Shown here in pieces: positions 6,948-23,806 of a stretch of DNA of 56,935 nt. Positions within the stretch are counted from its first letter, which is position 1. Every line of letters starts with the position of its first letter. A program made the position numbers and the translations under genes. This stretch comes from Bacteroidota bacterium (lineage in GTDB: Bacteria > Bacteroidota > Bacteroidia > UKL13-3): the NCBI GenBank assembly GCA_947491825.1, contig CANLLM010000004.1:1-56935 (forward strand), in the 5' to 3' direction. The notes below the pieces were generated by a model. It had not been told where the DNA came from. It was given only the letters and a program-made list of their open reading frames with translations, and ran no database searches.

Positions 6948-8144
6948 ATGTACGGTAAATTACAACAACACTTACAACAAGAATTAGCTGATATTAAAGC
7001 AGCAGGATTATATAAAAGCGAGCGCATTATTGTATCGGAGCAGGGGGCAGAAATTACCTTAAATACTGGTCAAAGTGTGTTAAATTTTTGCGCCAATAAT
7101 TACTTGGGTTTATCATCTCATCCGCGTGTTAAAGAAGCTGCTAAAAAAGCTTTGGAAACCCATGGTTTTGGTGTTAGCAGTGTACGTTTTATTTGTGGTA
7201 CCCAAGATATTCATAAAGCATTAGAGAAAACCATTGCCGATTTTTATGGTACGGAAGATACCATTTTGTACGCAGCTGCTTTTGATGCAATGGGGGCGTT
7301 TTTGAACCTTTGTTTCAAGAGGCGGATGCCATTATTAGTGATGAGTTAAATCATGGCAAGTATTATTGATGGTGTGCGTTTGTGTAAGGCACAACGCTAC
7401 CGTTATAAAAACAATGATATGGCTGATTTGGAAACGCAATTAATTGCTGCCAACGAAAAAGGTGCTCGGTTTAAAATTATTGTAACCGATGGCGTGTTTA
7501 GCATGGATGGTTATGTGGCACAAATGGATAAAATTTGTGATTTAGCCGATAAATACGATGCGTTGGTCATGACGGATGAATGCCATAGTGCAGGATTTAT
7601 TGGTAAAACCGGAAGAGGCGTTCCTGAGTTGTGCAATGTAATGGGTCGTGTAGATATAATCACTGGAACCTTAGGCAAAGCTTTAGGCGGTGCAATGGGA
7701 GGATACACCACAGGTAAAAAAGAAATTATTGAATTGTTACGTCAACGCTCTCGCCCTTATTTATTTAGTAACTCATTGGCTCCGGCAATTGTTGGTGCAA
7801 GTATTGAAGTATTTAAATTGTTAAACGAAAGCACTGCATTACGTGATAAGTTAGAGATGAACGTTAATCAGTTTAAAGCTGGCATGCAAGCAGTTGGATT
7901 TGATTTACGCGGTGGCGCTAGTGCAATTGTTCCTGTCATGTTGTATGATGCAAAATTAGCGCAGGAAATGGCCAACCAATTACTAGATGAAGGCATTTAT
8001 GTAACAGGCTTCTTTTATCCTGTGGTACCTAAAAACTTAGCACGTATACGTGTGCAACTTTCTGCAGCACATGAGCCGCATCATATTGAAAAAGCCATTG
8101 CGGCATTTACCAAAGTGGGTAAAGAGTTAGGTGTTGTAAAATAA
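6948..8144 (+). pseudogene. kbl: Glycine C-acetyltransferase (2-amino-3-ketobutyrate CoA ligase), interrupted by a -1/+1 indel pair at ~7289 and ~7355; may be a sequencing artefact in an intact gene
   Basis: [41 protein letters not shown] (PLP lysine). ORFs 6948-7349 and 7353-8144 share a frame; the missing [22 protein letters not shown] is encoded in the shifted frame at 7289-7354. Confidence 0.85.
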
Positions 8145-8194: not shown

Positions 8195-8201
8195 CTGCGT
8201 A

Positions 8202-8262
8202 TTAACAATTTGGTAACAAATTATTGATGCTGCATTAACTTAAGGATAACTTTGGTTTAATC
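8202..8262 (+). promoter_or_regulatory. Six 11-bp-phased hexamer repeats (PhoB/OmpR-family-like binding array)
   Basis: TTAACA 8202, GTAACA 8213, TTGATG 8224 (degenerate), TTAACT 8235, ATAACT 8246, TTAATC 8257. Confidence 0.65.
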
Positions 8263-8315: not shown

Positions 8316-11252
8316 ATGAGAATCACTTTACAAAAATTAATTACAACTGTTATAGCCTTAACCATCGGACTAGCAGCTTTTGCGCAAACCGGAAAAATTA
8401 ACGGAAAAGTAATCGATAAGAAAAATGGAGAAGAACTAATTGGTGTTTCGGTTAGTGTAGAGGGAACTTCCTTTGGTGCTTCAACCGACTTAGAAGGGAG
8501 ATTTAATATAGTTAACCTAAAGCCAGGCACATACAACCTAAATCTAAGTTATGTGGGATACATCAAAAAGCAATTGGTTGGTATAGTGGTTAAAGGAGGC
8601 GAATCATCAACCATCAATGTGGCATTAGAAGGGTCGTCAAAAGAATTGAGTGAAGTTGTAGTACAAGGTGAATTGAAAAAAGAAAGTGCCAGTGCATTAT
8701 TAATTCAACAAAAAAATTCAGTTACAGTCTCTGATGGTATTTCAGCTGATGTAATAAAAAAATCACCAGATAATACCACTAGTGATGCAATGAAACGTAT
8801 TAGTGGTACATCAATACAAGATAATAAATTTGCGATCATACGTGGTTTGAACGACCGTTATAATTCAGCATATATTAATGGTGCACCCCTTCCTAGTACT
8901 GAATCTGATCGTAAAGCATTTTCATTTGATATTATTCCTTCTAACATGGTCGATAATATGGTGATTACCAAATCAGGGTCTCCAGATTTGCCTGGTGATT
9001 TTACCGGAGGATTAATTACCATCAATACCAAAGACATTCCAGAAAAAAAATTCATTTCAGTGGGTTTTGGAACCAGTATTAATAGTATAACTACTGGGAA
9101 AAGTGGAATACAATCTACAACAACTGGCAAAACTGATTGGCTTGGTCTTGATGATGGAACGCGTAAAGTTCCCACAGATATCGCAGGACGTGGATTTTAC
9201 CATACTCAAACTATAGCTGAAAAAGCAGCGGCAAGTCAAAAATTTCAAGACAATTGGAGTACTAATCGCATATCATCACTTCCATTAAATTACTCCTTAC
9301 AAATTGCTGGTGGTAACATGTTTAAGTTTGGTAAGAAAAATGAGTTTGGATATATTTTATCTGGTTCATACAATAATAGTTACCGAAACACCTCCGTAGA
9401 TAGAAACAGATTCAATAAACCCATGATTGGGGATGAAAATCAGTTATTATCATCTTATACTGATGAAACAACAAAACATGAATTGCTTACAGGTGCTATG
9501 GCTAACTTTGGATTAAAGCTAAACGGAAATCATAAGTTTAGTTTTAAAAATGCTTACACCATCAATACAGAAAATGTTGCTCAAATAAGAACTGGGATTG
9601 ATAGTTATTTAGATGAACAAGTACCATTGGTTAAGAACACTTATCTATCTTATCAACAAAACCAATTATTTACTTCTCAATTAATAGGTGAACACTTTTT
9701 AACTAAATCGAAGCTTAAAGTAAAATGGGTGTTGAACTACAATAAAATTAAAAGAGATATTCCTGATTTTAGAAGGTTCTCTACACGTTCAACATTAATG
9801 GATCCTTCCACAGGTGAGTACACCCCTTATGGAGCTCAAGTATCAAATAGTATTGATATTACCCAAACGGGCAGGTTCTTTTCTACCTTAGATGAAAACA
9901 TCAAAAGTGCTGGCGCTGACTTTCAACTACCTATCGGTTTTTTTACAGGAAAAAAAATAAAAACAGTTGTTAAGGTTGGTGGATTCATTCAACAACGTAA
10001 AAGAGACTTTCAAGCACGTGCTTTTGGTTATCGTCTGCGTTTTGTTAGCGATCCCAATAGCGTGTACAATTACCAAAAATTTATACAGGGTAACCTTGAT
10101 ACCTTATTTAGTAAAAATAAGTTAAATGATACATTATATATTGACGAGGATTTTAGACCTCAAGATGTATATTCAGCTGAGTCGAACCTAAAGGCAGCTT
10201 ATGTAATGTTTGATCAACGTATGTTTAGTAGGTTTAGGGTGGTTTACGGTGCTCGTTTTGAATCATACCAGCAAATATTAAATACGTTTGAGTTAAATCA
10301 ATCACCACCAAAACCATTAACTATCGATACCACATTTAACGATATTCTTCCTTCGATTAACCTTACTTATGAGTTAACAGAAAAAGTTAATTTACGTTTA
10401 TCTGGTTTCAGAAGTTTGGCCAGACCTGAATTTAGAGAATTAGCTCCTTTTGCGTTTTATGATTTTAACCTGAATACCACCGTTAGTGGTAAGCCAAATT
10501 TGGCCCGCACAAGGATCAACAATTATGATTTTAGGTTTGAGTATTTCCCTGGCGAAGGGCAATTGATTTCTGGATCATTGTTTTATAAAGAATTTACCAA
10601 TGCCATAGAAAGCTTAAATGAATTACCAGGAAGTGATCCTCTGCTCTCTTATACAAGTGATGCAAATGCAACCAATTATGGCTTAGAGGTTGAAATCAGA
10701 AAAAACTTTGACTTTTTGGATAAGTTATTTGGCACCAAATTGTTGTTTAGAAACTTTATTTTCACCATGAATTATGCACGTATTTTTTCAGAGGTTAAAA
10801 TTGAAGGATCAGCTGCAGCTGCAGGTATAGGAACCCGTCCATTGCAGGGGCAATCACCAAGCATTATCAATTCAAGTATACAATACTATAATCCCAATAG
10901 TGGTTTGTCGGTTGCCATATTTGTTAACCGTGTAGGTAGACGTATTGCATTTGTAAGAGAAAAAAATGGCTTGATTCCTGATTTATGGGAGAATCCTAGA
11001 ACTGTGGTTGACCTTTCTATCGCACGTAAAATTTACAAAGGGTTAGAGGCTAAATTCACTATTGGTGATTTATTGGCTCAAGACTTAATATTTTACCAAG
11101 ACAACAACAAAAACGGTAAATTTGATGATGTAAGCATTAAACAACGTATAGACTCAAATATTCCAGCATCGGTAAAAGCAAATTTCGACAATACTGTTTA
11201 TCGCTTTACCAATGGTTACAATGTTAGCATTGGAGCAAGCTATAAATTCTAA
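8316..11252 (+). CDS. TonB-dependent receptor (N-terminal carboxypeptidase-regulatory-like domain, plug, beta-barrel)
   Basis: Signal peptide from ATG 8316 (the GTG at 8277 lies upstream of the -7 element); GKVIDKKNGEELIGVSV, plug motif SDAMKRISGTSIQDNKFAIIRGLNDRYN, LARPEFRELAPF, NYDFRFEYFP, C-terminal ASYKF. Confidence 0.92.
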   Translation: MRITLQKLITTVIALTIGLAAFAQTGKINGKVIDKKNGEELIGVSVSVEGTSFGASTDLEGRFNIVNLKPGTYNLNLSYVGYIKKQLVGIVVKGGESSTINVALEGSSKELSEVVVQGELKKESASALLIQQKNSVTVSDGISADVIKKSPDNTTSDAMKRISGTSIQDNKFAIIRGLNDRYNSAYINGAPLPSTESDRKAFSFDIIPSNMVDNMVITKSGSPDLPGDFTGGLITINTKDIPEKKFISVGFGTSINSITTGKSGIQSTTTGKTDWLGLDDGTRKVPTDIAGRGFYHTQTIAEKAAASQKFQDNWSTNRISSLPLNYSLQIAGGNMFKFGKKNEFGYILSGSYNNSYRNTSVDRNRFNKPMIGDENQLLSSYTDETTKHELLTGAMANFGLKLNGNHKFSFKNAYTINTENVAQIRTGIDSYLDEQVPLVKNTYLSYQQNQLFTSQLIGEHFLTKSKLKVKWVLNYNKIKRDIPDFRRFSTRSTLMDPSTGEYTPYGAQVSNSIDITQTGRFFSTLDENIKSAGADFQLPIGFFTGKKIKTVVKVGGFIQQRKRDFQARAFGYRLRFVSDPNSVYNYQKFIQGNLDTLFSKNKLNDTLYIDEDFRPQDVYSAESNLKAAYVMFDQRMFSRFRVVYGARFESYQQILNTFELNQSPPKPLTIDTTFNDILPSINLTYELTEKVNLRLSGFRSLARPEFRELAPFAFYDFNLNTTVSGKPNLARTRINNYDFRFEYFPGEGQLISGSLFYKEFTNAIESLNELPGSDPLLSYTSDANATNYGLEVEIRKNFDFLDKLFGTKLLFRNFIFTMNYARIFSEVKIEGSAAAAGIGTRPLQGQSPSIINSSIQYYNPNSGLSVAIFVNRVGRRIAFVREKNGLIPDLWENPRTVVDLSIARKIYKGLEAKFTIGDLLAQDLIFYQDNNKNGKFDDVSIKQRIDSNIPASVKANFDNTVYRFTNGYNVSIGASYKF

Positions 11253-11277
11253 ATAACAACCTAATTTTACAGAATAT

Positions 11278-11299
11278 AAAGCCCTTCAAAGGGCTTTTT
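11278..11299 (+). terminator. Intrinsic terminator after the TBDR
   Basis: AAAGCCCT-tcaa-AGGGCTTT followed by TT. Confidence 0.75.
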
Positions 11300-11396
11300 C
11301 TGTATAGTTAAGTTAGATATTTAATTAATCATACTTCTTTTATGCTAGTTATTGATTCCTACTTCACCGCGAATTGAAACCCATACTTACCAAACC

Positions 11397-11452
11397 TTAA
11401 CTTTTAATTAATATTAAAGTAAGCATTACTAAATATACTGCATTTAATTTTG
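11397..11452 (+). promoter_or_regulatory. Three 11-bp-phased hexamers plus -7 promoter element of the T9SS beta-helix gene
   Basis: TTAACT 11397, TTAATA 11408, GTAAGC 11419; TAATTTTG at 11445-11452; same 26-bp box-to-(-7) distance as the TBDR promoter. Confidence 0.6.
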
Positions 11453-11468
11453 TGCAAAACTTATATAT

Positions 11469-14400
11469 ATGAAAAAACTCAACTTATTATTGATTACCTT
11501 GGTTTTTGCTGTAAGTGCAGTATTTGCGCAAAAGGTAAGGACCATTTCTGGTAGTATTACCAATGATGTTACTTTCTTCAACGATACCATTTATACTTTA
11601 GATGGTTATGTTTTTGTTAAAAACAATGCAACACTTACCATTCAACCAGGTACCATTGTTAAAGGTAAAGCCGGTAATAAATCTACATTGATTATTACCC
11701 GTAATGGTAAAATTAATGCAAATGGTACGTCTAATCAACCCATAATTTTTACATCTGAAAAGCTGGCTGGCCAACGTGCAAAAGGTGATTGGGGCGGTTT
11801 GGTAATTTTAGGTAAAGCGATACTTAATCGTCCTACTGATTGCTCAACTTGTCCAGGTTCTGCAATTGCTGCTAACGAGGCAGGAATACAAAATGCAATA
11901 GAAGGTGATATTGACAATGCAAACGGTGATGGTTTATACGGAGGCACTGATAGTACTCACAATGCAGGTATTTTAAAATTTGTTCGTATAGAATTTGCTG
12001 GAACGGTAATTACACCAGGTAACGAAATCAATGGATTAACCATGGGTGCTTTAGGTTCAGTTACTACCATTGAAAATGTTCAGGTTTCATTTGCTGATGA
12101 TGACGGATTTGAGTGGTTTGGTGGAAGTGTAAATGCAAAATGGTTAGTTTCTAACCGCAACGTAGATGACGACTTAGACGTAGATTTTGGTTTCAAAGGT
12201 AAAGTACAATTTGCCATCGTATTGCGTGACTCTAATCTATATGATATTGGAAGTGGTCCAACTACAAATGGTTTTGAATCAGACAATGATGGATCAGGAT
12301 CTGAGGCTAAACCATTTACCGACCCAACATTTTCAAATGTTACTGTAGTAGGTCCATTAGCTAACGGAACTGCATTAAGTACAGCAAACTCATTCCAAAA
12401 CGGAGCCCGTATCCGCAGAAACTCATCAACCTCTATATTCAACTCTATTATCATGGGCTACCCTGATGGATTGTTTGTAGATGGTACCCGTACAGGACAA
12501 AAATTTGCCACTGATTCAATGATGTTCCGCAACAATATTTTAGCCGGTAACTTAAGAGCTGTAAACAACACTTCATCTAATGTTGCTACTGTTAGATCTA
12601 ATATTTTTAGTCAAGGTACTGATTCTTTGTTTTCTGCAAATGGCGTGTTAACAAACGCTTTTAACTATACCAATCCTAATTTTTTACCTGCTACTGGTTC
12701 TGTTGCTTTATCAGGTGCTGCATTTACAGCCCCTCGTATAGCTGATAGTTACTTTACACCAACTACATACCGTGGTGCTATGGGTACTGATGATTGGACA
12801 AAATGCTGGTGTAACTTTAACCCAAATGCAGCCAATTATGATATAGCTCCATTGAATAACTTCGTTCCTGTTGTCGATGCAAGTAATGATACAACCATTT
12901 GTATTGGTAAAACCGTAACAATTGGTAAAGATTTGGGACTAGTAGGTTACAGCTATTCATGGTCTCCAACTGCGGGTTTAAGCAATGCAACAATTGCTCG
13001 CCCTGTTGTAAATATTAATACAACAACCAAATATTTTGTAACAGTAACAGACAATGCAACTGGTTGCAAAAAAACAGATAGTATCACTGTAACGATTTCT
13101 CCATTGCCGACTGTTGATTTCAGTTCATCATTAGGTTCAAATGGTTCGGTTTCTTTCTTAAATGCTTCTACCAATGCTGCAACTTACAGCTGGACTTTTG
13201 GCGATGGGGGAACTTCAACTGTTGCTAACCCAACTAGACAATATTCTACAAATGGAACTTTTCAAGTAAAACTAATTGTAACAAGTGCAAACGGATGTGT
13301 AGCACAAACAATCAAACAAATTGTAGTAACAGGTATTAATTCTCCGGTTAAAGCATTATCAGGTGAGATTACAACAAATACCACTTTATTCCGTGATACG
13401 ATATATACCTTAAATGGTTACGTGTTTGTTAAAAACAATGCAACATTAACCATTCAATCAGGTACCATTATTAAAGGTGGTGCAGATAAAGCATCGTTAA
13501 TCATTACCCGTAATGGTAAAATTGAGGCAAATGGAACTAAAAATCAACCTATTGTTTTCACTTCGGCAAAAGCTGCTGGTCAACGTGCCAAAGGTGATTG
13601 GGGAGGTTTAATCATTTTAGGTAAAGCCAAAGTTAATCGTCCTACAGATTGCTCAACTTGTCCTGGTAGTGCAATTGCTGCTAATGAGGCAGGTATACAA
13701 AATGCAATAGAAGGTGATATAGATAACGCAAATGGCGATGGCTTATATGGTGGTAATGATGATACGCACAATGCTGGTACTTTAAAATACGTTCGTTTAG
13801 AGTTCGGAGGAACAGTAATCACCCCAGGTAACGAAATCAATGGTTTAACCATGGGTGCTTTAGGTTCAGCTACCACATTAGAAAATATTCAAGTATCCTT
13901 TGCTGATGATGACGGATTTGAGTGGTTTGGTGGTAATGTAAATGGTAGAAACTTAATTTCATTCCGTAACGTAGATGACGATTTAGATGTTGATTTTGGA
14001 TTTTCTGGTAAGGTACAAAACGCCATTGTTTTGCGTGACTCTAATCTATATGATATTGGAAGTGGTCCAACTACTAACGGTTTCGAATCTGACAATGATG
14101 GATCAGGAACAGAATCTAAACCATATACTGATCCAACATTCTCTAATGTTACAGTTGTTGGCCCATTAGCTAACGGAACTGCATTAAGCACATCAAACTC
14201 ATTCCAAAACGGAGCTCGTATCCGCAGAAACTCATCAACCTCTATATTCAACTCTATTATCATGGGCTACCCTGATGGATTGTTTGTTGATGGTACCCGT
14301 ACAGGACAAAAATTTGCCAATGACTCTATGATGTTCCGTAACAATATCTTGGCTGGTAACTTAAGAGCTGTTAACAATAGCTCTGCTAATGCTTCATCTG

Positions 14401-15473
14401 TAAGGGCTAGCATTGTTGCTAACGGTTGCGATACATTAACCTCAGCAAATGGTGTGTTGGGAAATCCATTCAACTATACCAATCCTAACTTTGCTCCAGC
14501 TCCAAGTTCAATTGCATTATCTGGAGCAAGCTTTACAGCAAATCGTTTAAATGATCCTTTCTTCAAGCAAACTTCACATAGAGGTGCTTTAAGTGCTAAT
14601 CCTGATAGCAACTGGACAGACTGCTGGTCAAATTTCGACCCGCAATTAGAGGGATATACATCTGCTCCATACAATAGACCAGGTGCTTTAGCCGGATTTA
14701 CAGCAACAAACGGAACTGGTAGAACAGTAAACTTTACAAATACTTCTTCAAATGCAGTAGCCTATTTCTGGAACTTTGGTGTTACCAATTCAACAACTGA
14801 TACCAGTGTTGCAGCTAACCCTTCATTTGTCTATCCATCAAACGGAAGTTATAATGCTACCCTTACAGCCTTAAGTCCATGTGGTAAAGCTACTTTTGGT
14901 GTAACTGTTGTAGTAAACGATGCTTCTTCTAACCCGGTTGCTGATTTCACATATGTGCAAAGCGCAACAACTGGTTCACGTGAGTTTACTTTCACTAATA
15001 CTACTGACGAAAAAGGATTTGTAACTACTTACCGCTGGGATTTTGGAGTAGCGTCTTCATCAGCTGACACTTCAACAGTTAAAAATCCGGTGTTCAATTT
15101 CCCTGCTAGTGGATCTTACACGGTTACTTTAATTGCAACAGGTACTGCTGGTGCTGATACCATTAGTAAAGTGTTAAATGTAACTCCAGTAGGTATTAAA
15201 GAAATTTCTTCTACAATTAGTAACGTAACATTGTATCCAAATCCAACTTCAAACATCACCAACGTTTCGTTTGATTTAACTGAGAATACAAATGTTGCCA
15301 TTAACTTATATGATATGAGCGGAAGACTTGTAAAAGCAATTCCAACTCAATACTTAACTAGTGGTAATAACAGCATAGCTATTGAAACATCAGAAGTAAA
15401 TGCAGGTGTATACTTTGCAAACATTACTACCGATAAATTTAGCAAGACATATCGTTTGGTGATTATTAAATAA
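11469..15473 (+). CDS. T9SS-secreted protein: two tandem beta-helix domains of the TBDR-associated family, an Ig/SprB-like repeat, three PKD domains and a T9SS type A CTD
   Basis: Signal VFA|Q; duplicated GDWGGLxILGKA...EFxG...NEINGLTMG...DDDGFEWFGG...DDDLDVDFG...GFESDN domains 1809-1812 nt apart; PKD motifs YSWTFGDG, YFWNFG, YRWDFG; CTD LYPNPTS...GVYFANI...LVIIK. Confidence 0.88.
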   Translation: MKKLNLLLITLVFAVSAVFAQKVRTISGSITNDVTFFNDTIYTLDGYVFVKNNATLTIQPGTIVKGKAGNKSTLIITRNGKINANGTSNQPIIFTSEKLAGQRAKGDWGGLVILGKAILNRPTDCSTCPGSAIAANEAGIQNAIEGDIDNANGDGLYGGTDSTHNAGILKFVRIEFAGTVITPGNEINGLTMGALGSVTTIENVQVSFADDDGFEWFGGSVNAKWLVSNRNVDDDLDVDFGFKGKVQFAIVLRDSNLYDIGSGPTTNGFESDNDGSGSEAKPFTDPTFSNVTVVGPLANGTALSTANSFQNGARIRRNSSTSIFNSIIMGYPDGLFVDGTRTGQKFATDSMMFRNNILAGNLRAVNNTSSNVATVRSNIFSQGTDSLFSANGVLTNAFNYTNPNFLPATGSVALSGAAFTAPRIADSYFTPTTYRGAMGTDDWTKCWCNFNPNAANYDIAPLNNFVPVVDASNDTTICIGKTVTIGKDLGLVGYSYSWSPTAGLSNATIARPVVNINTTTKYFVTVTDNATGCKKTDSITVTISPLPTVDFSSSLGSNGSVSFLNASTNAATYSWTFGDGGTSTVANPTRQYSTNGTFQVKLIVTSANGCVAQTIKQIVVTGINSPVKALSGEITTNTTLFRDTIYTLNGYVFVKNNATLTIQSGTIIKGGADKASLIITRNGKIEANGTKNQPIVFTSAKAAGQRAKGDWGGLIILGKAKVNRPTDCSTCPGSAIAANEAGIQNAIEGDIDNANGDGLYGGNDDTHNAGTLKYVRLEFGGTVITPGNEINGLTMGALGSATTLENIQVSFADDDGFEWFGGNVNGRNLISFRNVDDDLDVDFGFSGKVQNAIVLRDSNLYDIGSGPTTNGFESDNDGSGTESKPYTDPTFSNVTVVGPLANGTALSTSNSFQNGARIRRNSSTSIFNSIIMGYPDGLFVDGTRTGQKFANDSMMFRNNILAGNLRAVNNSSANASSVRASIVANGCDTLTSANGVLGNPFNYTNPNFAPAPSSIALSGASFTANRLNDPFFKQTSHRGALSANPDSNWTDCWSNFDPQLEGYTSAPYNRPGALAGFTATNGTGRTVNFTNTSSNAVAYFWNFGVTNSTTDTSVAANPSFVYPSNGSYNATLTALSPCGKATFGVTVVVNDASSNPVADFTYVQSATTGSREFTFTNTTDEKGFVTTYRWDFGVASSSADTSTVKNPVFNFPASGSYTVTLIATGTAGADTISKVLNVTPVGIKEISSTISNVTLYPNPTSNITNVSFDLTENTNVAINLYDMSGRLVKAIPTQYLTSGNNSIAIETSEVNAGVYFANITTDKFSKTYRLVIIK

Positions 15474-15492
15474 TAAGGTTTAGGTAAAACAT

Positions 15493-15524
15493 AAAAAAGC
15501 CTCGCAGCAATGCGGGGCTTTTTT
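15493..15524 (+). terminator. Intrinsic terminator after the T9SS gene
   Basis: AAAAAAGCCTCGCA-gcaa-TGCGGGGCTTTTTT. Confidence 0.8.
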
Positions 15525-15540
15525 ATGTTTGGAATTTCTG

Positions 15541-15676
15541 GGGCGTTCTCCCGAGGTTACGCTTCACTCCACTCGGGATTGCGCTGCGCTTCTCCCAGGT
15601 TACGCTGTGCTTCACTCGGGGTCGGGTGTTCCGCTATACTATGCTGCGCTTCGGTGTCGCTGCACCCCCTAACGCG
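15541..15676. repeat. GC-rich palindromic dispersed-repeat-like element with an internal tandem duplication
   Basis: TCTCCCGAGGTTACGCTTCACTCCACTCGGG (15547-15577) recurs as TCTCCCAGGTTACGCTGTGCTTCACTCGGG (15591-15620); GC content is far above the flanks. Confidence 0.6.
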
Positions 15677-15692
15677 TGTTTATCGTGAAATA

Positions 15693-16043
15693 CGAAACGT
15701 AGTTCAGCGGAGCTAAATTTTAAATCCGAAAAACGAAAAACGAAATGAGTTGCGCTGAACTTTGTCTTGAAAGTCGGAGACCAAGTTCAGCACACTTAAA
15801 AAGCGTCAGACCTTTGGGTATTATACCCTCCGTGAAGCTCTGCGTAACCTCTGTCAAACTTTGTGAAATTAGTTAGTTGAATTGTTAAGGTTTAATTAAC
15901 TTAAACTCTATAATTACTCTTTAAACGCAATAGCCACTTCGAGTGATTGCTGCAAAGGAGATGAGTTGGGGCAATGATATCGAGAATGGATTGTTAAATT
16001 ATAGTTCTAACCTTCTCTTTTAGCTCCGCTGAACTAGGTTTCG
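15693..16043. repeat. 25-bp inverted repeat pair (MITE-like ends or oppositely oriented REP copies)
   Basis: CGAAACGTAGTTCAGCGGAGCTAAA (15693-15717) versus TTTAGCTCCGCTGAACTAGGTTTCG (16018-16043), 24/25 complementary. Confidence 0.7.
15742..15817 (+). repeat. 76-bp direct repeat, copy 1
   Basis: 64/76 identical to 16423-16498 (last 44 nt 42/44); internal GCTGAAC...GTTCAGC stem. Confidence 0.85.
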
Positions 16044-16069
16044 ATACAATTCGAGTACTCGGGTCACAA

Positions 16070-16311
16070 CAGACGCTAAGGTCTGTGCCTGCTCGAACAG
16101 GCTGTAACTTTGCGAAGCAAACTCCTTTACTCTAATAAACTCGAGACTATGCATCTCTTTTCACTCTGCGAAAAACCTCCTTCCGAACCTTCGGAACCCT
16201 ATGTGGTAAAAAAGAAAACGCAGAGGTGGGTGAATAGTCTTGCGAAGATTCGAGCATAGTCGCATACAAAATTGAGAGCAGGCAGACCATTGGTACAGAC
16301 CGAAGCGTCTG
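16070..16311. repeat. Nested inverted-repeat (concentric foldback) element
   Basis: Pairs 16070-16085/16296-16311 (14/16), 16086-16094/16276-16284 (9/9), 16145-16152/16254-16261 (8/8), 16164-16170/16219-16225 (7/7), inner hairpin 16181-16196. Confidence 0.65.
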
Positions 16312-16422
16312 CTAGCAATGCCAAAGGCATTGGGGAGTGTTTAACTTATGGAACGTAATCAACGTTTGAACGAAAAACTATCGTCTTCCTTTGAAGGAAG
16401 ATAAGAGATGGATGTTTTGTTA

Positions 16423-16498
16423 GAAATGAGCTATGCTGAACTAAGTTTCAGAAATCGGAGACCAAGTTCATCACACTTATAAAGCGTCAGACCTTTGG
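16423..16498 (+). repeat. 76-bp direct repeat, copy 2
   Basis: 681 bp downstream of copy 1. Confidence 0.85.
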
Positions 16499-16771
16499 CG
16501 TTAGCAAAAAAATAGTATAAGCTAATTAAATTGTAACCAACCGTACTGACGCGAAATGCGTCTGACGGTTTTAAATTCAAACTCCATTTAAAAACCAACT
16601 TGGAAAAAAGCGTTTAATTGTTTTAGTTAGCTGAACCAAATTTTAATCATTAGCCCTATGAAAATAACATCACCTTACGCTTTAACTTCGTCTATACCAT
16701 CAAATTTGGTGTGATAAGCGAAGAAAAAATTTGTCTATAAACTAGAACGTTTTCTATTTCGTAACCAAACG

Positions 16772-21518: not shown

Positions 21519-21754
21519 GTTAGCGAATATAGTTAAAGTGTATCATAACGTTGTTAAATATAGACTATTACTAAATGCATAATAACGCCAATTGGAAAAA
21601 GCAGTTTTAATAAGATTTAATTTATTCAATTAACCTGCACTAGAATAGTAAGTTATCTTTTGTGCGTTATTTGTTGGTAGTTTTCACACACTTTTTTTTC
21701 AACCCCAATCAATTAGTATTTTAATGCCTTAATGTGTAAACTTGCGCCTCAATC

Positions 21755-23806
21755 ATGGTAAAAAAAGACATACTTTTAGAAGCCTACATGCACATGTGCG
21801 AAGCACGTGCTATGGCCGATATTTATGACGTTAACCGACCTATTTGCAAATACGTACACTCTACTTCATGCGGGCATGAAGCCATTCAGCTTGCTGTAGG
21901 CATGCAATTAAAACCATATGACTATTGTTCTCCTTATTATAGAGACGAATCTATGTTGCTTGGCATGGGGTTAAGTCCTTACGAGTTAATGTTACAATTG
22001 CTAGGTAAGGCCGAAGATCCTTTTTCGGGTGGAAGAACTTATTACGCACATCCAAGTTTAAATCGCGATGACTTTCCTAAAATACCACATCAAAGTAGTG
22101 CTACTGGTATGCAAGCTATTCCGGCTACAGGTATGGCGCATGGTATTGCCTATAAAGAAAGTCAGCGATTAAATAAAAAAGGTGAATACCCAGTTGTAGT
22201 ATGCAGTTTTGGCGATGGCTCCGTTACGGAGGGTGAAGTTGCTGAGGCATTTCAAATGGCTGTGCTCAAACAGTTGCCTATTATTTATTTGGTACAGGAT
22301 AACGATTGGGGAATTAGTGCGAGTGGTGAGGAAATGCGTGCCATGGATGCTTACGAGTATGCAGCAGGTTTTAAAGGCCTGAAGCGTATGCGTTTAAATG
22401 GCAGCGATTTTGTAGAAAGTTATAAAGGTTTTGCCGAAGCAATAGATTATGTGCGCAACAACCGTAAGCCAATTTTGGTTCATGCAAAAGTGCCATTGTT
22501 GGGTCACCATACCAGTGGTGTGCGTAAAGAGTGGTATAGAACAGATGATGATTTAGCCATACATGGTAAAGATGATCCTCAACCTAAATTGAAGCAGTTA
22601 TTGCTCGAAATTGGGGTGCCGGAAGTAGAGTTAACCGAGATAGAAAAAGATGCTACCTATAAAGTAGAACAACACTTTAAACAAGCAATAGAAAGCGAAG
22701 ATCCAGATCCTGCTACTGTTGAAGACCATATTTTTGCACCAAGTGGAGCTACCGAAGAAGTGGGCAATCGTACACCCGAAGGTAAGGAGCCAAGCGTAAT
22801 GGTGGATGCTGCTTTACATGCGGTAGATGAGTTAATGACCAAACATCCCGAGTGTATGTTTTACGGACAAGATGTGGGCGCTAGACTAGGTGGAGTATTC
22901 AGAGAAGCTGCAACTTTAGCAGGCAAATATGGTAACGATCGTGTGTTTAATACACCCATTCAAGAAGCCTATATTATTGGTTCAACAGTTGGTATGAGTG
23001 CTGTTGGTGTGAAACCAATTGTAGAAATTCAGTTTGCCGATTATGTGTGGACAGGTGTAAATCAGTTGGTTTGTGAAATCACCAAGTCATCTTACCTAAC
23101 CATGGGTAAGTATCCTGTAAGTGCTATTATACGTATTCCAATTGGGGCTTATGGTGGGGGTGGTCCTTATCATAGTGGAAGTATCGAGTCAACTTTGCTT
23201 ACCCTTAAAGGAATAAAAATTGCATACCCGAGTAATGCTGCCGATATGAAAGGTTTGATGAAAGCCGCTTATTATGATGGCAACCCTGTAATTATGTTAG
23301 AGCATAAAGGGTTGTATTGGAGTAAAAATCCGGGTACAGAGTTGGCGCGTTGTGTGGAGCCTGATGAAGATTACATTTTACCATTAGGAAAAGCAAATAC
23401 GGTTTTACAAGCGAGTGATGAAGCCATGGAGAATGGTGAAAGTTGCTGCATCATAACCTGGGGTATGGGCGTATATTGGAGTTTGGCTGCAGCTAAACGT
23501 TTTGAGGGCAGGGTAGAAGTAGTTGATTTGCGCACGCTTCAGCCTTTGGATGAAGAATACATACAAGCCGCAGTTAAACGCCATGGTAAATGTTTAATTG
23601 TTACTGAGGAGGCATTGTTAAATTCGTTTGCTGAAAGTTTGGCCGGAAGGATTTCGCAAGATTGTTTTAAATATTTAGATGCACCTGTGTTTACCATTGG
23701 TGCTAAAAATATTCCGGCAGTGCCTTTAAATATGGGATTAGAAGCAGAGATGCTACCTAATGCTGATAAAGTAGCTCTTAAACTTGAGGCGTTGTTAAAC
23801 TATTAA
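21755..23806 (+). CDS. 2-oxoacid (probably branched-chain) dehydrogenase E1, fused alpha+beta subunits
   Basis: TPP motif GDGSVTEG...QDNDW, LLGHHTSG, beta part FYGQDV...GGVFR...FNTPIQE...VEIQFADY, EVVDLRTL. Confidence 0.9.
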   Translation: MVKKDILLEAYMHMCEARAMADIYDVNRPICKYVHSTSCGHEAIQLAVGMQLKPYDYCSPYYRDESMLLGMGLSPYELMLQLLGKAEDPFSGGRTYYAHPSLNRDDFPKIPHQSSATGMQAIPATGMAHGIAYKESQRLNKKGEYPVVVCSFGDGSVTEGEVAEAFQMAVLKQLPIIYLVQDNDWGISASGEEMRAMDAYEYAAGFKGLKRMRLNGSDFVESYKGFAEAIDYVRNNRKPILVHAKVPLLGHHTSGVRKEWYRTDDDLAIHGKDDPQPKLKQLLLEIGVPEVELTEIEKDATYKVEQHFKQAIESEDPDPATVEDHIFAPSGATEEVGNRTPEGKEPSVMVDAALHAVDELMTKHPECMFYGQDVGARLGGVFREAATLAGKYGNDRVFNTPIQEAYIIGSTVGMSAVGVKPIVEIQFADYVWTGVNQLVCEITKSSYLTMGKYPVSAIIRIPIGAYGGGGPYHSGSIESTLLTLKGIKIAYPSNAADMKGLMKAAYYDGNPVIMLEHKGLYWSKNPGTELARCVEPDEDYILPLGKANTVLQASDEAMENGESCCIITWGMGVYWSLAAAKRFEGRVEVVDLRTLQPLDEEYIQAAVKRHGKCLIVTEEALLNSFAESLAGRISQDCFKYLDAPVFTIGAKNIPAVPLNMGLEAEMLPNADKVALKLEALLNY

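What the first reader, a model, noticed from the sequence alone, without database searches (positions are those of the whole stretch)
8316..15473. Candidate novel uptake system: TBDR plus a T9SS-exported double beta-helix capture protein under one regulator
This is not a SusC/SusD pair. The TBDR is followed by a protein built from a conserved acidic beta-helix domain (GDWGGL, EINGLT, DDDGFEWFGG, DDDLDVDFG, GFESDN). I recall this domain mainly as a single-domain lipoprotein beside this TBDR type, which needs checking. Here it has no lipobox, is duplicated, is spaced by Ig/PKD stalk domains and ends in a T9SS CTD, so it would be surface-attached or released. The genes are separated by a terminator but share the same promoter architecture. 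Together this suggests a co-regulated scavenging module, possibly for phosphate esters, polyphosphate or nucleic acid, with an extended bivalent substrate-capture protein.
Basis: partly seen in the sequence, partly recalled or inferred. Interest (0 to 1): 0.8.

Follow-up and report, generated by a model that had tools for sequence, protein, structure and literature searches.

The report
Phosphate-starvation receptor with T9SS beta-helix partner
This is a real two-gene outer-membrane uptake unit that appears to be switched on by phosphate starvation, but it belongs to a widespread pair already described in Flavobacterium, Bacteroides and Caulobacter whose cargo is still unknown; here the helper protein is doubled and exported by type IX secretion instead of carrying a lipid anchor.

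Summary
Gene 8316-11252 encodes a non-SusC TonB-dependent receptor. Gene 11469-15473 encodes a 1334-aa protein with an SPI signal, two 79%-identical beta-helix modules, Ig/PKD spacers and a T9SS tail. A hairpin terminator separates the genes.

The module is not new. In 61 of 80 related loci an orthologous receptor sits directly upstream of the beta-helix gene. These loci often lie next to phoBR, pstSCAB-phoU, OprP-like porins or OlsF-like genes. This matches the published low-phosphate-induced pairs Fjoh_0545/0546 (Pus4), BT4055/4056 and ElpS/CC0171, whose substrate is unknown.

T9SS-tail forms (33 of 86) and lipoprotein forms (about 47 of 86) are common alternatives, and tandem copies arose repeatedly.

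Both genes carry 11-bp-phased TTAAC(A) arrays. In the whole 2.5-Mb MAG only four sites reach 20 bits: these two, the phoBR promoter and an OlsF-like lipid-remodelling gene. That supports control by PhoB.

Verdict: a T9SS-anchored, doubled variant of a known, functionally unsolved phosphate-starvation uptake pair.

The parts
8200..8255 (+). Pho-box-like array upstream of the receptor gene. Five 11-bp-phased units have cores at 8202 TTAAC, 8213 GTAAC, 8224 TTGAT, 8235 TTAAC and 8246 ATAAC. The last unit overlaps a Bacteroidota-type -7 box, TAACTTTG, at 8247-8254.
   Evidence: Sequence read. It is the best-scoring site in the whole MAG (23.1 bits). Arrays sit at the same place in relatives L004-L008.
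8316..11252 (+). TonB-dependent receptor of 978 aa, not of the SusC type. It has a signal peptide MRITLQKLITTVIALTIGLAAFA/Q, a CarboxypepD_reg domain (about 8397-8663), a Plug domain (about 8712-8996) and a TIGR01782-like barrel.
   Evidence: Orthologues of 30-96% identity sit directly upstream of the beta-helix gene in 61 loci.
11278..11303 (+). Intrinsic-terminator-like hairpin AAAGCCCTTCAAAGGGCTTT followed by a T run, lying between the two genes.
   Evidence: A hairpin plus T run is present at the same position, with a different sequence, in L004, L005, L007 and L008.
11386..11452 (+). Second, weaker Pho-box-like array. Phased cores lie at 11386 CTTAC, 11397 TTAAC, 11408 TTAAT, 11419 GTAAG and 11430 TAAAT. 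A -7 box, TAATTTTG, follows at 11445-11452.
   Evidence: Sequence read. It is the fourth-best site in the MAG (20.3 bits). Arrays upstream of the D gene are stronger in L005-L008.
11469..15473 (+). Gene for the 1334-aa T9SS cargo protein that carries two ElpS-type beta-helix modules.
11469..11528 (+). Sec/SPI signal peptide (MKKLNLLLITLVFAVSAVFA, followed by Q). It has no cysteine and therefore no lipobox.
   Evidence: read directly. An 'AQ' cleavage context is seen in all T9SS-tail forms.
11529..12848 (+). Beta-helix module 1 (aa 21-460).
   Evidence: HMM match. AlphaFold2 model with pLDDT 92.6. Precomputed family tag PF28492 on homologues.
12876..13334 (+). Spacer between the modules: an Ig-like repeat plus a PKD domain (aa about 470-622).
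   Evidence: PKD_4 best stretch at 563-614. PDB PKD-type matches over 541-634.
13347..14666 (+). Beta-helix module 2 (aa 627-1066), 79% identical to module 1.
14721..15161 (+). Two PKD domains (aa about 1085-1231).
   Evidence: ColH PKD alignment over 1094-1230. PKD_4 matched in three stretches.
15231..15464 (+). T9SS type A C-terminal sorting domain (aa 1255-1332).
   Evidence: PF18962 and TIGR04183 matches.
15487..15530 (+). Terminator hairpin after the beta-helix gene (AAACATAAAAAAGCCTCGCA / TGCGGGGCTTTTTTATGTTT).
   Evidence: Inverted repeat I6; sequence.

Best explanation
The region is a PhoB-controlled outer-membrane acquisition module of the ElpS / BT4056 / Fjoh_0546 type. It pairs a dedicated non-SusC TonB-dependent transporter with a surface beta-helix partner protein.

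Proposed mechanism:
1. Under phosphate limitation, phosphorylated PhoB binds head-to-tail to the 11-bp-phased (T/G)TAACA arrays just upstream of the TAnnTTTG -7 box of each gene. It activates two separate transcripts, divided by the terminator at 11278-11303. (Inferred from motifs.)
2. The partner protein crosses the inner membrane through Sec and is cut by signal peptidase I. It is then exported through the T9SS (SprA is present in the genome). Its C-terminal domain is removed, and the protein is either attached to the cell surface or shed. (Inferred from domain content.)
3. The two beta-helix modules are held on Ig/PKD stalks. Each carries a ladder of invariant Asp/Glu residues plus an Arg-Arg pair on successive helix rungs. 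They capture a phosphorus-containing, probably anionic and metal-bridged, ligand and pass it to the receptor. The receptor imports it using TonB energy. (Inferred; the ligand is unknown.)

What is shown here in silico: the gene pair, the domain anatomy, the conserved pairing across phyla, the genomic linkage to pho/pst genes, and the Pho-box pattern.
For: Conserved pairing:
- A full-length orthologue of the receptor lies immediately upstream on the same strand in 61 loci from Bacteroidota and Ignavibacteriota.
- Both partners also have homologues side by side in Gamma- and Alphaproteobacteria.
- One of these, in Indioceanicola, has the order beta-helix gene, receptor, T2SS genes. That is the layout published for elpS-cc0171-gsp in Caulobacter (PMC2996285).

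Pho linkage:
- 24 of 80 loci carry an OmpR-type regulator and kinase, mostly directly beside the receptor.
- Two Bacteroidales examples tested (loci L023 and L045) pass the NCBIfam equivalog cut-offs for PhoB and PhoR, and the neighbouring PstS in L023 passes TIGR00975.
- pstSCAB-phoU and OprP-like porins adjoin the pair in 6-8 loci.
- OlsF-like genes recur nearby.

Pho boxes:
- An untrained phased-TTAAC score has a median of 15 upstream of receptor genes against 11.5 for 482 control promoters (p=3e-27). It is 14 upstream of beta-helix genes (p=4e-9).
- In the whole MAG only four sites reach 20 bits, against 0-1 in shuffles. They lie upstream of the receptor, the beta-helix gene, the phoB/phoR-like operon and an OlsF-like gene.
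- The same motif precedes the porin/pstS operons in L023, L034 and L051.

Literature:
- Fjoh_0545/0546 lie in the phoBR operon. They are induced 8-10 log2-fold by phosphate depletion, and Fjoh_0546 is abundant in the exoproteome (PMC8115612).
- BT4055/4056 is predicted to be a receptor-lid pair conserved in 621 genera.
- ElpS is induced by phosphate starvation.

Export route:
- SprA and at least 88 CTD-bearing proteins are present in this MAG.
Against:
Family identity rests on matching gene context, homologues in Parabacteroides, Bacteroides, Phocaeicola and Proteobacteria, and the papers' descriptions.
- The array upstream of the beta-helix gene scores only 20.3 bits, close to the level where shuffled genomes give 0-1 hits.
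- The weight matrix was built from arrays seeded on TTAAC, and 1 of the 37 arrays came from the window itself.
- In Caulobacter the receptor cc0171 was reported to be constitutive and regulated independently of elpS.
- No phosphatase or nuclease is consistently linked to the pair, so nothing points to a particular substrate.
- Whether the domain binds or cleaves its ligand is unknown.
- Price et al. found few high-confidence AlphaFold contacts for BT4055-BT4056.
Confidence: 0.78

Rival explanations
1. The beta-helix modules are extracellular enzymes rather than passive binders. They could be a Ca2+-dependent lyase or esterase acting on an anionic phosphorus-bearing polymer such as teichoic acid, phosphorylated polysaccharide, polyphosphate or nucleic acid. 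The receptor would then import the released fragment.
For: - Invariant charged residues sit on successive rungs of the helix (D191/D192, D213/D214/D217/D219, E250/D252/N253, R296/R297). This resembles the Ca2+ ladder plus Arg base of pectate lyases (from general knowledge).
- The only fold neighbours are beta-helix lyases, hydrolases and tailspikes.
- ElpS secretion correlated with alkaline phosphatase activity in Caulobacter supernatants.
- Fjoh_0546 is abundant in the exoproteome.
Against: - There is no sequence match to any Pfam, NCBIfam or PDB enzyme family.
- Foldseek matches are weak (best E 2e-3, TM at most 0.4).
- The strict one-to-one pairing with a receptor and the AlphaFold-Multimer docking reported for BT4055/4056 fit a receptor partner.
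Confidence: 0.25
2. The protein is released from the cell and works as a diffusible shuttle, analogous to a haemophore. It would capture the phosphorus compound in the medium and dock transiently on the receptor, rather than acting as a fixed lid.
For: - T9SS type A cargo can be released.
- The beta-helix gene has its own promoter and terminator. T9SS-tail forms generally have long receptor-to-partner gaps (median about 170 nt against about 48 nt for lipoprotein forms, p=0.001).
- In F. johnsoniae, Fjoh_0546 transcript counts are about 14 times those of Fjoh_0545 in the highest-expression columns of the supplementary table, and the protein is abundant in the exoproteome.
- ElpS is shed into the medium.
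- Repeated multiplication of the module would raise capture avidity.
Against: - Many T9SS cargos are anchored to the cell surface through lipopolysaccharide.
- The lipoprotein forms in other lineages are membrane-tethered.
- No localisation data exist for any T9SS-tail form.
Confidence: 0.2
3. The module is not a phosphorus importer. It could take up a metal (for example Ca or Fe) or a glycan, or it could remodel the envelope, and it is merely co-regulated with the phosphate stress response.
For: - The ligand is unknown.
- The acidic ladder could bind cations.
Against: - The pair is linked to phoBR, pst, OprP-like and OlsF-like genes across several orders.
- Lidbury et al. report that the low-phosphate-inducible loci are tightly repressed under N and Fe limitation.
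- Pho boxes lie upstream of both genes.
Confidence: 0.07
4. The phased TTAAC arrays are not PhoB sites. They could be chance AT-rich periodicity or the sites of another regulator, in which case the two genes would not be co-regulated.
For: - The genome is AT-rich (about 36% GC).
- The matrix was seeded on TTAAC.
- The site upstream of the beta-helix gene is near background.
Against: - The untrained score separates receptor promoters from 482 controls at p=3e-27.
- The four top sites in the MAG are all upstream of phosphate-response genes, including phoBR itself.
- The same arrays precede pstS operons in other genomes.
- Near-perfect arrays occur in Ignavibacteriota (L067, L078).
- Direct repeats with 11-bp periodicity are the known binding mode of the PhoB/PhoP family (PMC2275107, PMC4415409).
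Confidence: 0.05

Closest known systems
Flavobacterium johnsoniae Pus4 / phoBR operon: Fjoh_0545 (TBDT) and Fjoh_0546 ('FII' hypothetical lipoprotein), Lidbury et al. 2020, PMC8115612
   Same: - A non-SusC TonB-dependent transporter is followed on the same strand by a pectin-lyase-fold surface protein with no Pfam family.
- The pair belongs to the phosphate-starvation regulon.
- The gene order PhoR-PhoB-TBDT-partner is reproduced in the Chryseobacterium loci of the survey.
- The partner protein is abundant outside the cell.
   Different: - Fjoh_0546 is a lipoprotein described as a single protein. The window's protein has no lipobox, has two modules on Ig/PKD stalks, and carries a T9SS tail.
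- phoBR lies on another contig (C28), and each gene has its own Pho-box promoter.
Bacteroides thetaiotaomicron BT4055/BT4056, a putative TBDT 'lid' pair (Price, Deutschbauer, Arkin 2023, bioRxiv 10.1101/2023.03.17.533168)
   Same: - A conserved TBDT plus adjacent surface protein of the pectin-lyase superfamily.
- The pairing is conserved in hundreds of genera of Bacteroidota and Proteobacteria. This matches my survey.
- Bacteroidales homologues (Parabacteroides, Phocaeicola, Bacteroides) are 32-38% identical to the window module.
   Different: - BT4056 is a lipoprotein. The Bacteroidales forms I sampled have an N-terminal Ig-like (Big_2-tagged) domain and end at the end of the module.
- No phenotype was found for BT4055/4056, and they had few high-confidence AlphaFold contacts.
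Caulobacter crescentus ElpS (CC0170) with TonB-dependent receptor CC0171 (Le Blastier et al. 2010, PMC2996285)
   Same: - A surface protein induced by phosphate starvation and encoded beside a TBDR.
- It is shed from the cell.
- Proteobacterial homologues of the window module (30-36% identity over about 95% of the domain) lie beside a homologous TBDR. In Indioceanicola this is followed by T2SS genes, as at the elpS locus.
   Different: - ElpS is a lipoprotein whose release depends on the T2SS. In the proteobacterial loci the gene order is partner then receptor.
- cc0171 was reported to be constitutive.
- Here export is by the T9SS and both genes carry Pho boxes.
SusC/SusD and PusC/PusD complexes of Bacteroidota
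   Same: The same logic applies: a TonB-dependent transporter with a cognate surface-exposed partner that captures the substrate. PusCD complexes are also induced by phosphate starvation (PMC8115612; bioRxiv 10.64898/2026.09.03.749221).
   Different: - The receptor fails the SusC model (62 bits against 368, N-terminus only).
- The partner is a beta-helix rather than the SusD family; no SusD-family match was found for it.
- No ECF sigma / anti-sigma pair is adjacent.

Membership tests
ElpS / BT4056 / Fjoh_0546-type TBDT plus beta-helix partner module | The partner protein has a right-handed beta-helix (pectin-lyase-like) fold and no older Pfam family. | tested here: met
   AlphaFold2 model with pLDDT 92.6 and pTM 0.94. 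All Foldseek PDB neighbours are beta-helix proteins, but the matches are weak (best E 2e-3). No match in Pfam (2025 copy) or NCBIfam.
ElpS / BT4056 / Fjoh_0546-type TBDT plus beta-helix partner module | The partner is encoded next to, and on the same strand as, a dedicated non-SusC TonB-dependent receptor, and this pairing is conserved across families. | tested here: met
   61 loci have receptor and partner adjacent. The same holds in Parabacteroides, Pseudoalteromonas and Indioceanicola.
ElpS / BT4056 / Fjoh_0546-type TBDT plus beta-helix partner module | Sequence homology to the named founders (Fjoh_0546, BT4056, ElpS). | tested here: inconclusive
Indirect support:
- homologues in Bacteroides, Parabacteroides and Phocaeicola (E 1e-28 to 1e-77);
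- homologues in Alpha- and Gammaproteobacteria (E 1e-38 to 1e-55), including one in an elpS-like locus followed by T2SS genes;
- the PhoR-PhoB-TBDT-partner order in Chryseobacterium matches Fjoh_0543-0546.
ElpS / BT4056 / Fjoh_0546-type TBDT plus beta-helix partner module | Control by phosphate starvation (PhoB). | tested here: met
   Met in silico only. Pho-box-like arrays lie upstream of both genes. The only other sites of at least 20 bits in the MAG lie upstream of phoBR and an OlsF-like gene. The motif is enriched at p=3e-27 and precedes pstS operons elsewhere. Expression itself could not be tested.
ElpS / BT4056 / Fjoh_0546-type TBDT plus beta-helix partner module | The partner is an outer-membrane lipoprotein with an N-terminal lipobox cysteine. 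| tested here: not met
   The window protein has an SPI-type signal with no cysteine, and a T9SS CTD. In the survey, 33 of 86 proteins have the CTD and about 47 are lipoproteins, with no real overlap between the two. The anchor is therefore variable within the family, not a defining feature.
SusC/SusD pair | The receptor matches the SusC/RagA model TIGR04056 over its full length, and a SusD-family lipoprotein is encoded next to it. | tested here: not met
   TIGR04056 scores 62 bits against a cut-off of 368 and covers residues 40-173 only. The neighbouring protein has no SusD match.
T9SS type A cargo | A C-terminal Por_Secre_tail domain, an N-terminal Sec signal, and T9SS machinery in the genome. 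| tested here: met
   PF18962 at 55 bits and TIGR04183 at 49 bits. The signal peptide was read. SprA is present at 2518 bits, and 88 CTD matches above cut-off occur in the MAG.
Polysaccharide lyases / glycoside hydrolases with a beta-helix fold (PL1, PL6, PL9, GH28) | A match to the sequence family and its catalytic motifs. | tested here: not met
   No Pfam or PDB sequence match. Structural similarity is generic (TM at most 0.4).

The most novel reading that the evidence does not exclude
The T9SS-exported, multivalent beta-helix proteins are shed capture proteins or Ca2+-dependent enzymes for a so-far-unrecognised class of phosphorus substrate. Candidates are an anionic, metal-bridged polymer or a mineral-associated phosphate. 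The TonB-dependent receptor would import that substrate whole. This would define a new phosphorus-acquisition route used by thousands of Bacteroidota, Ignavibacteriota and Proteobacteria. The repeated multiplication of the module would be an adaptation for avidity towards polymeric or particulate ligands.
Probability: 0.15. Interest if true: 0.7.

Novelty: new variant of a known kind. Interest (0 to 1): 0.35.

Why it matters
The receptor/beta-helix pair is among the proteins most strongly induced in phosphate-starved Flavobacterium, and its beta-helix partner is among the most abundant in the exoproteome. The pair occurs in hundreds of genera. A September 2026 preprint from the same field still says its function is hard to predict.

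This window does not solve that. It adds three usable points:
- Surface display of the partner switches freely between a lipid anchor and the T9SS. The function therefore needs an extracellular location, not a particular tether.
- The module has been multiplied in tandem many times independently. This hints at avidity for a polymeric or particulate ligand.
- A clear Pho-box model for these phyla, (T/G)TAACA at 11-bp phasing, picks out a small coherent regulon in a streamlined freshwater MAG: receptor, partner, phoBR and an aminolipid synthase.

For ranking purposes it is a variant of a known, functionally unsolved system, not a new kind of system.

Tried and rejected
- One search used an out-of-frame receptor query (my off-by-one error). 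Its hits are meaningless and were replaced.
- PF28492, the family tag precomputed on homologues, is absent from the local Pfam copy and from the paper library. I could not read its description.
- Sequence searches of the PDB with the protein and with a profile found only PKD and CTD relatives.
- A permissive Pfam scan of the module gave one insignificant hit.
- A strict count of perfect phased TTAAC units found nothing in the MAG, because real arrays have degenerate units. I replaced it with a graded score with controls and a weight matrix.
I detected CTDs with a local iterated HMM instead.
- Rfam found nothing in the window.
- The supplements of PMC8115612 hold no sequence text for Fjoh_0546.
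- I considered a shared 'TTATTGAT' word in both promoters. I rejected it as an architectural element because its distance to the -7 box differs (about 26 nt against about 96 nt).


Full report
**What is there**

The window is contig C4 of a 2.5-Mb, 148-contig, 88%-complete MAG of about 36% GC.

Gene 8316-11252 (+) encodes a 978-aa TonB-dependent receptor.
- It has a signal peptide, a CarboxypepD_reg domain and a Plug domain.
- It matches the TIGR01782 model over residues 124-945 (220.7 bits, below that model's 310-bit cut-off).
- It matches the SusC model only at its N-terminus (62 bits against a cut-off of 368).

A gap of 216 nt follows. It holds a terminator-like hairpin at 11278-11297.

Gene 11469-15473 (+) then encodes a 1334-aa protein. 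Its parts are:
- an SPI signal with no cysteine;
- module 1 (aa 21-460);
- an Ig-like repeat plus PKD spacer;
- module 2 (aa 627-1066);
- two PKD domains;
- a type A T9SS sorting domain (aa 1255-1332).

A strong hairpin terminator follows the gene.

**The module**

It has no match in the local Pfam or NCBIfam and no sequence relative in the PDB. Homologues in the big protein collection carry a precomputed tag, PF28492, which I could not look up.

An AlphaFold2 model built on 30 homologues is confident (pLDDT 92.6, pTM 0.94) and almost all beta. Foldseek against the PDB returns only right-handed beta-helix proteins: tailspikes, PL6/PL9 lyases and the PfbA adhesin. All are weak matches (best E 2e-3, TM at most 0.4).

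Invariant residues form a charged ladder spaced about one helix rung apart: D191/D192, D213/D214/D217/D219, E250/D252/N253 and R296/R297. The reading of these as one binding or catalytic groove is my inference.

**How common it is**

The family is very large. A search of 50%-identity representatives gave 7085 clusters at E of 0.001 or better. A word-index search gave 6673 proteins.

I fetched 80 loci from one-genome-per-species contigs and called ORFs.
- A full-length orthologue of the window's receptor (30-96% identity) lies immediately upstream on the same strand in 61 loci. Most of the remainder are contigs cut too short to tell.
- Of the 86 partner proteins, 33 have an SPI signal plus a T9SS tail. 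About 47 are lipoproteins that end exactly at the end of the module. The two anchors do not co-occur.
- Multi-copy proteins (two to four modules) occur in about ten loci.

A tree of the modules puts the copies of each protein together in L005, L006, L007, L011, L017, L041, L052 and L079. Only the window and its 94%-identical relative L004 pair copy-with-copy. This means repeated duplication and/or gene conversion.

The family also reaches the Proteobacteria.
- The Pseudoalteromonas and Indioceanicola proteins examined are lipoproteins with two modules (E 1e-73 to 1e-87 per module).
- They lie beside a receptor homologous to the window's (25-26% identity over about 820-870 aa).
- In Indioceanicola, T2SS genes follow the pair. 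This is the arrangement published for elpS-cc0171-gsp in Caulobacter.

So neither the T9SS tail nor the duplication is unusual for the family.

**Link to phosphate**

Outside the pair, the neighbourhood varies. The recurrent neighbours are phosphate genes.
- 24 loci have an OmpR-type regulator and kinase, mostly right beside the receptor.
- Two Bacteroidales examples tested (loci L023 and L045) pass the curated NCBIfam cut-offs for PhoB (317-322 against 270 bits) and PhoR (619-659 against 500 bits). The adjacent binding protein in L023 passes the PstS model.
- pstSCAB-phoU follows or precedes the pair in L015, L023, L030, L051 and L067.
- An OprP-like porin follows the pair in L051. Porin-like 331-aa genes without a family match follow it in L023, L034 and L067.
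- OlsF-like aminolipid synthase genes recur nearby.

**The promoters**

Reading the upstream regions of the window and its nearest relatives showed arrays of TTAAC(A/T) units at exactly 11-bp spacing upstream of both genes. Each array ends at a TAnnTTTG box.

An untrained score (matches to TTAAC in four phased units) gave these medians:

| Region | n | Median score | p versus controls |
|---|---|---|---|
| Upstream of receptor genes | 58 | 15 | 3e-27 |
| Upstream of partner genes (gap at least 60 nt) | 34 | 14 | 4e-9 |
| Control promoters from the same loci | 482 | 11.5 | - |

The unit consensus from 37 arrays is (T/G)TAACA(T)(T). Near-perfect arrays occur in Melioribacter and Ignavibacterium.

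Scanning the whole MAG with this matrix gives only four sites of at least 20 bits, against 0-1 in shuffled genomes:
- upstream of the receptor (23.1 bits);
- upstream of an OlsF-like gene on C2 (22.9 bits; NF052615 match at E 1e-123);
- directly upstream of the phoB/phoR-like operon on C28 (22.1 bits; best NCBIfam hits PhoB and PhoR);
- upstream of the beta-helix gene (20.3 bits).

The same arrays precede the porin/pstS operons in L023, L034 and L051. Two-unit boxes precede those of L015, L030 and L067.

Several facts together make these PhoB sites the best reading:
- the regulator's own operon carries the motif, which suggests autoregulation;
- pst operons carry it in other genomes;
- a phospholipid-sparing lipid synthase gene carries it;
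- direct repeats of 11-nt periodicity are the known binding mode of PhoB/PhoP-family regulators (PMC2275107, PMC4415409).

From my own knowledge, the core also resembles the Bacillus subtilis PhoP and cyanobacterial SphR boxes.

T9SS-tail forms tend to have long gaps between receptor and partner genes (median about 170 nt against about 48 nt for lipoprotein forms, p=0.001). The terminator between the genes is conserved in position among the close relatives. In this clade, therefore, the partner gene is its own Pho-controlled transcription unit.

**What is already known**

- Lidbury et al. (PMC8115612) described Fjoh_0545 (TBDT) and Fjoh_0546 ('FII' lipoprotein, pectin-lyase fold) in the phoBR operon of F. 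johnsoniae. Both are induced 8-10 log2-fold by phosphate depletion, and Fjoh_0546 is abundant in the exoproteome. The authors related FI, FII and FIII to a low-phosphate lipoprotein of Caulobacter.
- In their supplementary table, Fjoh_0546 counts are about 14 times those of Fjoh_0545 in the highest-expression columns.
- Price et al. (bioRxiv 10.1101/2023.03.17.533168) listed BT4055/BT4056 as a putative receptor-lid pair. BT4056 is 40% identical to Fjoh_0546 and distantly related to ElpS. The proximity is conserved in 621 genera.
- Le Blastier et al. (PMC2996285) showed that ElpS is a surface lipoprotein induced by phosphate starvation. It is shed in a T2SS-dependent way, is associated with phosphatase activity, and is encoded beside the receptor CC0171.
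- A September 2026 preprint still calls the function of Pus3 and Pus4 hard to predict.

I could not align the window module with these three founders directly. The match of fold, gene order, regulators and taxonomic spread makes identity very likely, and I mark that step as inferred.

**Mechanism and rivals**

Most likely, PhoB activates both genes when phosphate runs low. The partner protein is exported by Sec and then by the T9SS; SprA and at least 88 CTD-bearing proteins are present in this MAG. Its two modules, held on Ig/PKD stalks, capture a phosphorus-containing ligand and hand it to the receptor for TonB-driven import.

Onward uptake of phosphate could use the PitA-like carrier on C89 or the PstS-like binding protein on C1. 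A tblastn search found no pstSCAB-phoU in this incomplete MAG.

Three questions stay open:
- whether the module binds or cleaves its ligand;
- whether the protein stays on the cell or is shed;
- what the ligand is.

Nothing in the conserved neighbourhoods (no phosphatase, nuclease or phytase) narrows the substrate.

**Verdict**

It is wrong in treating the system, the T9SS tail and the duplication as novel. This is a T9SS-anchored, doubled variant of a known but functionally unsolved phosphate-starvation uptake pair.

Noticed in passing
window 6948-8144: The gene upstream of the receptor looks like kbl (2-amino-3-ketobutyrate CoA ligase, a name I assigned by reading the translation; no family search was run) and is split into 133-aa and 263-aa ORFs in the same frame. 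The conserved stretch '[11 protein letters not shown]' reads in another frame between about 7300 and 7355. This implies two compensating frameshifts, which could be an assembly error or a real lesion. L004 has an intact 398-aa gene.
   Followed up: partly
window 15530-16770: A 1.2-kb stretch contains no ORF of at least 80 aa. It holds a 76-nt element in two copies (15742-15817 and 16423-16498, 84% identical), each with an internal hairpin. Other segments are repeated at 70-89% identity on contigs C41, C22, C10, C92 and C9. The corresponding spacer in the close relative L004 is only about 425 nt. It looks like a mosaic of dispersed non-coding repeats. Rfam finds nothing.
   Followed up: partly
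G000 C2:61406-63236 (locus L084): An OlsF-like bifunctional aminolipid synthase (589 aa; NF052615 at E 1e-123, below the model's cut-off) has a four-unit Pho-box array ending 16 nt before its ATG. This predicts phosphate-controlled replacement of phospholipids in this MAG.
   Followed up: partly
G000 C28:18595-21798 (locus L085): The phoB/phoR-like operon carries its own Pho-box array (21753-21798, minus strand). On the same strand it is followed by a 437-aa protein that has a T9SS tail and no other recognisable domain. This may be a further phosphate-regulated secreted protein.
   Followed up: no
G000, whole MAG: There are 88 Por_Secre_tail matches above cut-off in only 2.5 Mb, so the T9SS is the dominant export route to the surface. 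A tblastn search at 1e-10 detected no pstSCAB-phoU. Only a PstS-like binding protein (C1:65356-66138) and a PitA/PHO4 carrier (C89:1554-2846) were found. The MAG is 88% complete, so absence is not proven.
   Followed up: partly
L019, L032, L036 (Chryseobacterium-type loci), about 11540-12700: A second, shorter paralogue of the beta-helix lipoprotein (336-387 aa, covering about three quarters of the module) directly follows the first one.
   Followed up: no
L007 (CAYMRD010000022.1): The record is titled 'uncultured Bifidobacteriaceae bacterium'. However, it carries this receptor, a two-module T9SS-tail protein 67% identical to the window's, and TAnnTTTG promoters. The taxonomic label of that MAG looks wrong.
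   Followed up: no
L004 9935-15451: The closest relative (94% identical module) has the same two modules, but they are separated by about 670 aa instead of about 167 aa (1839 aa in total). The stalk length between modules therefore changes quickly.
   Followed up: no
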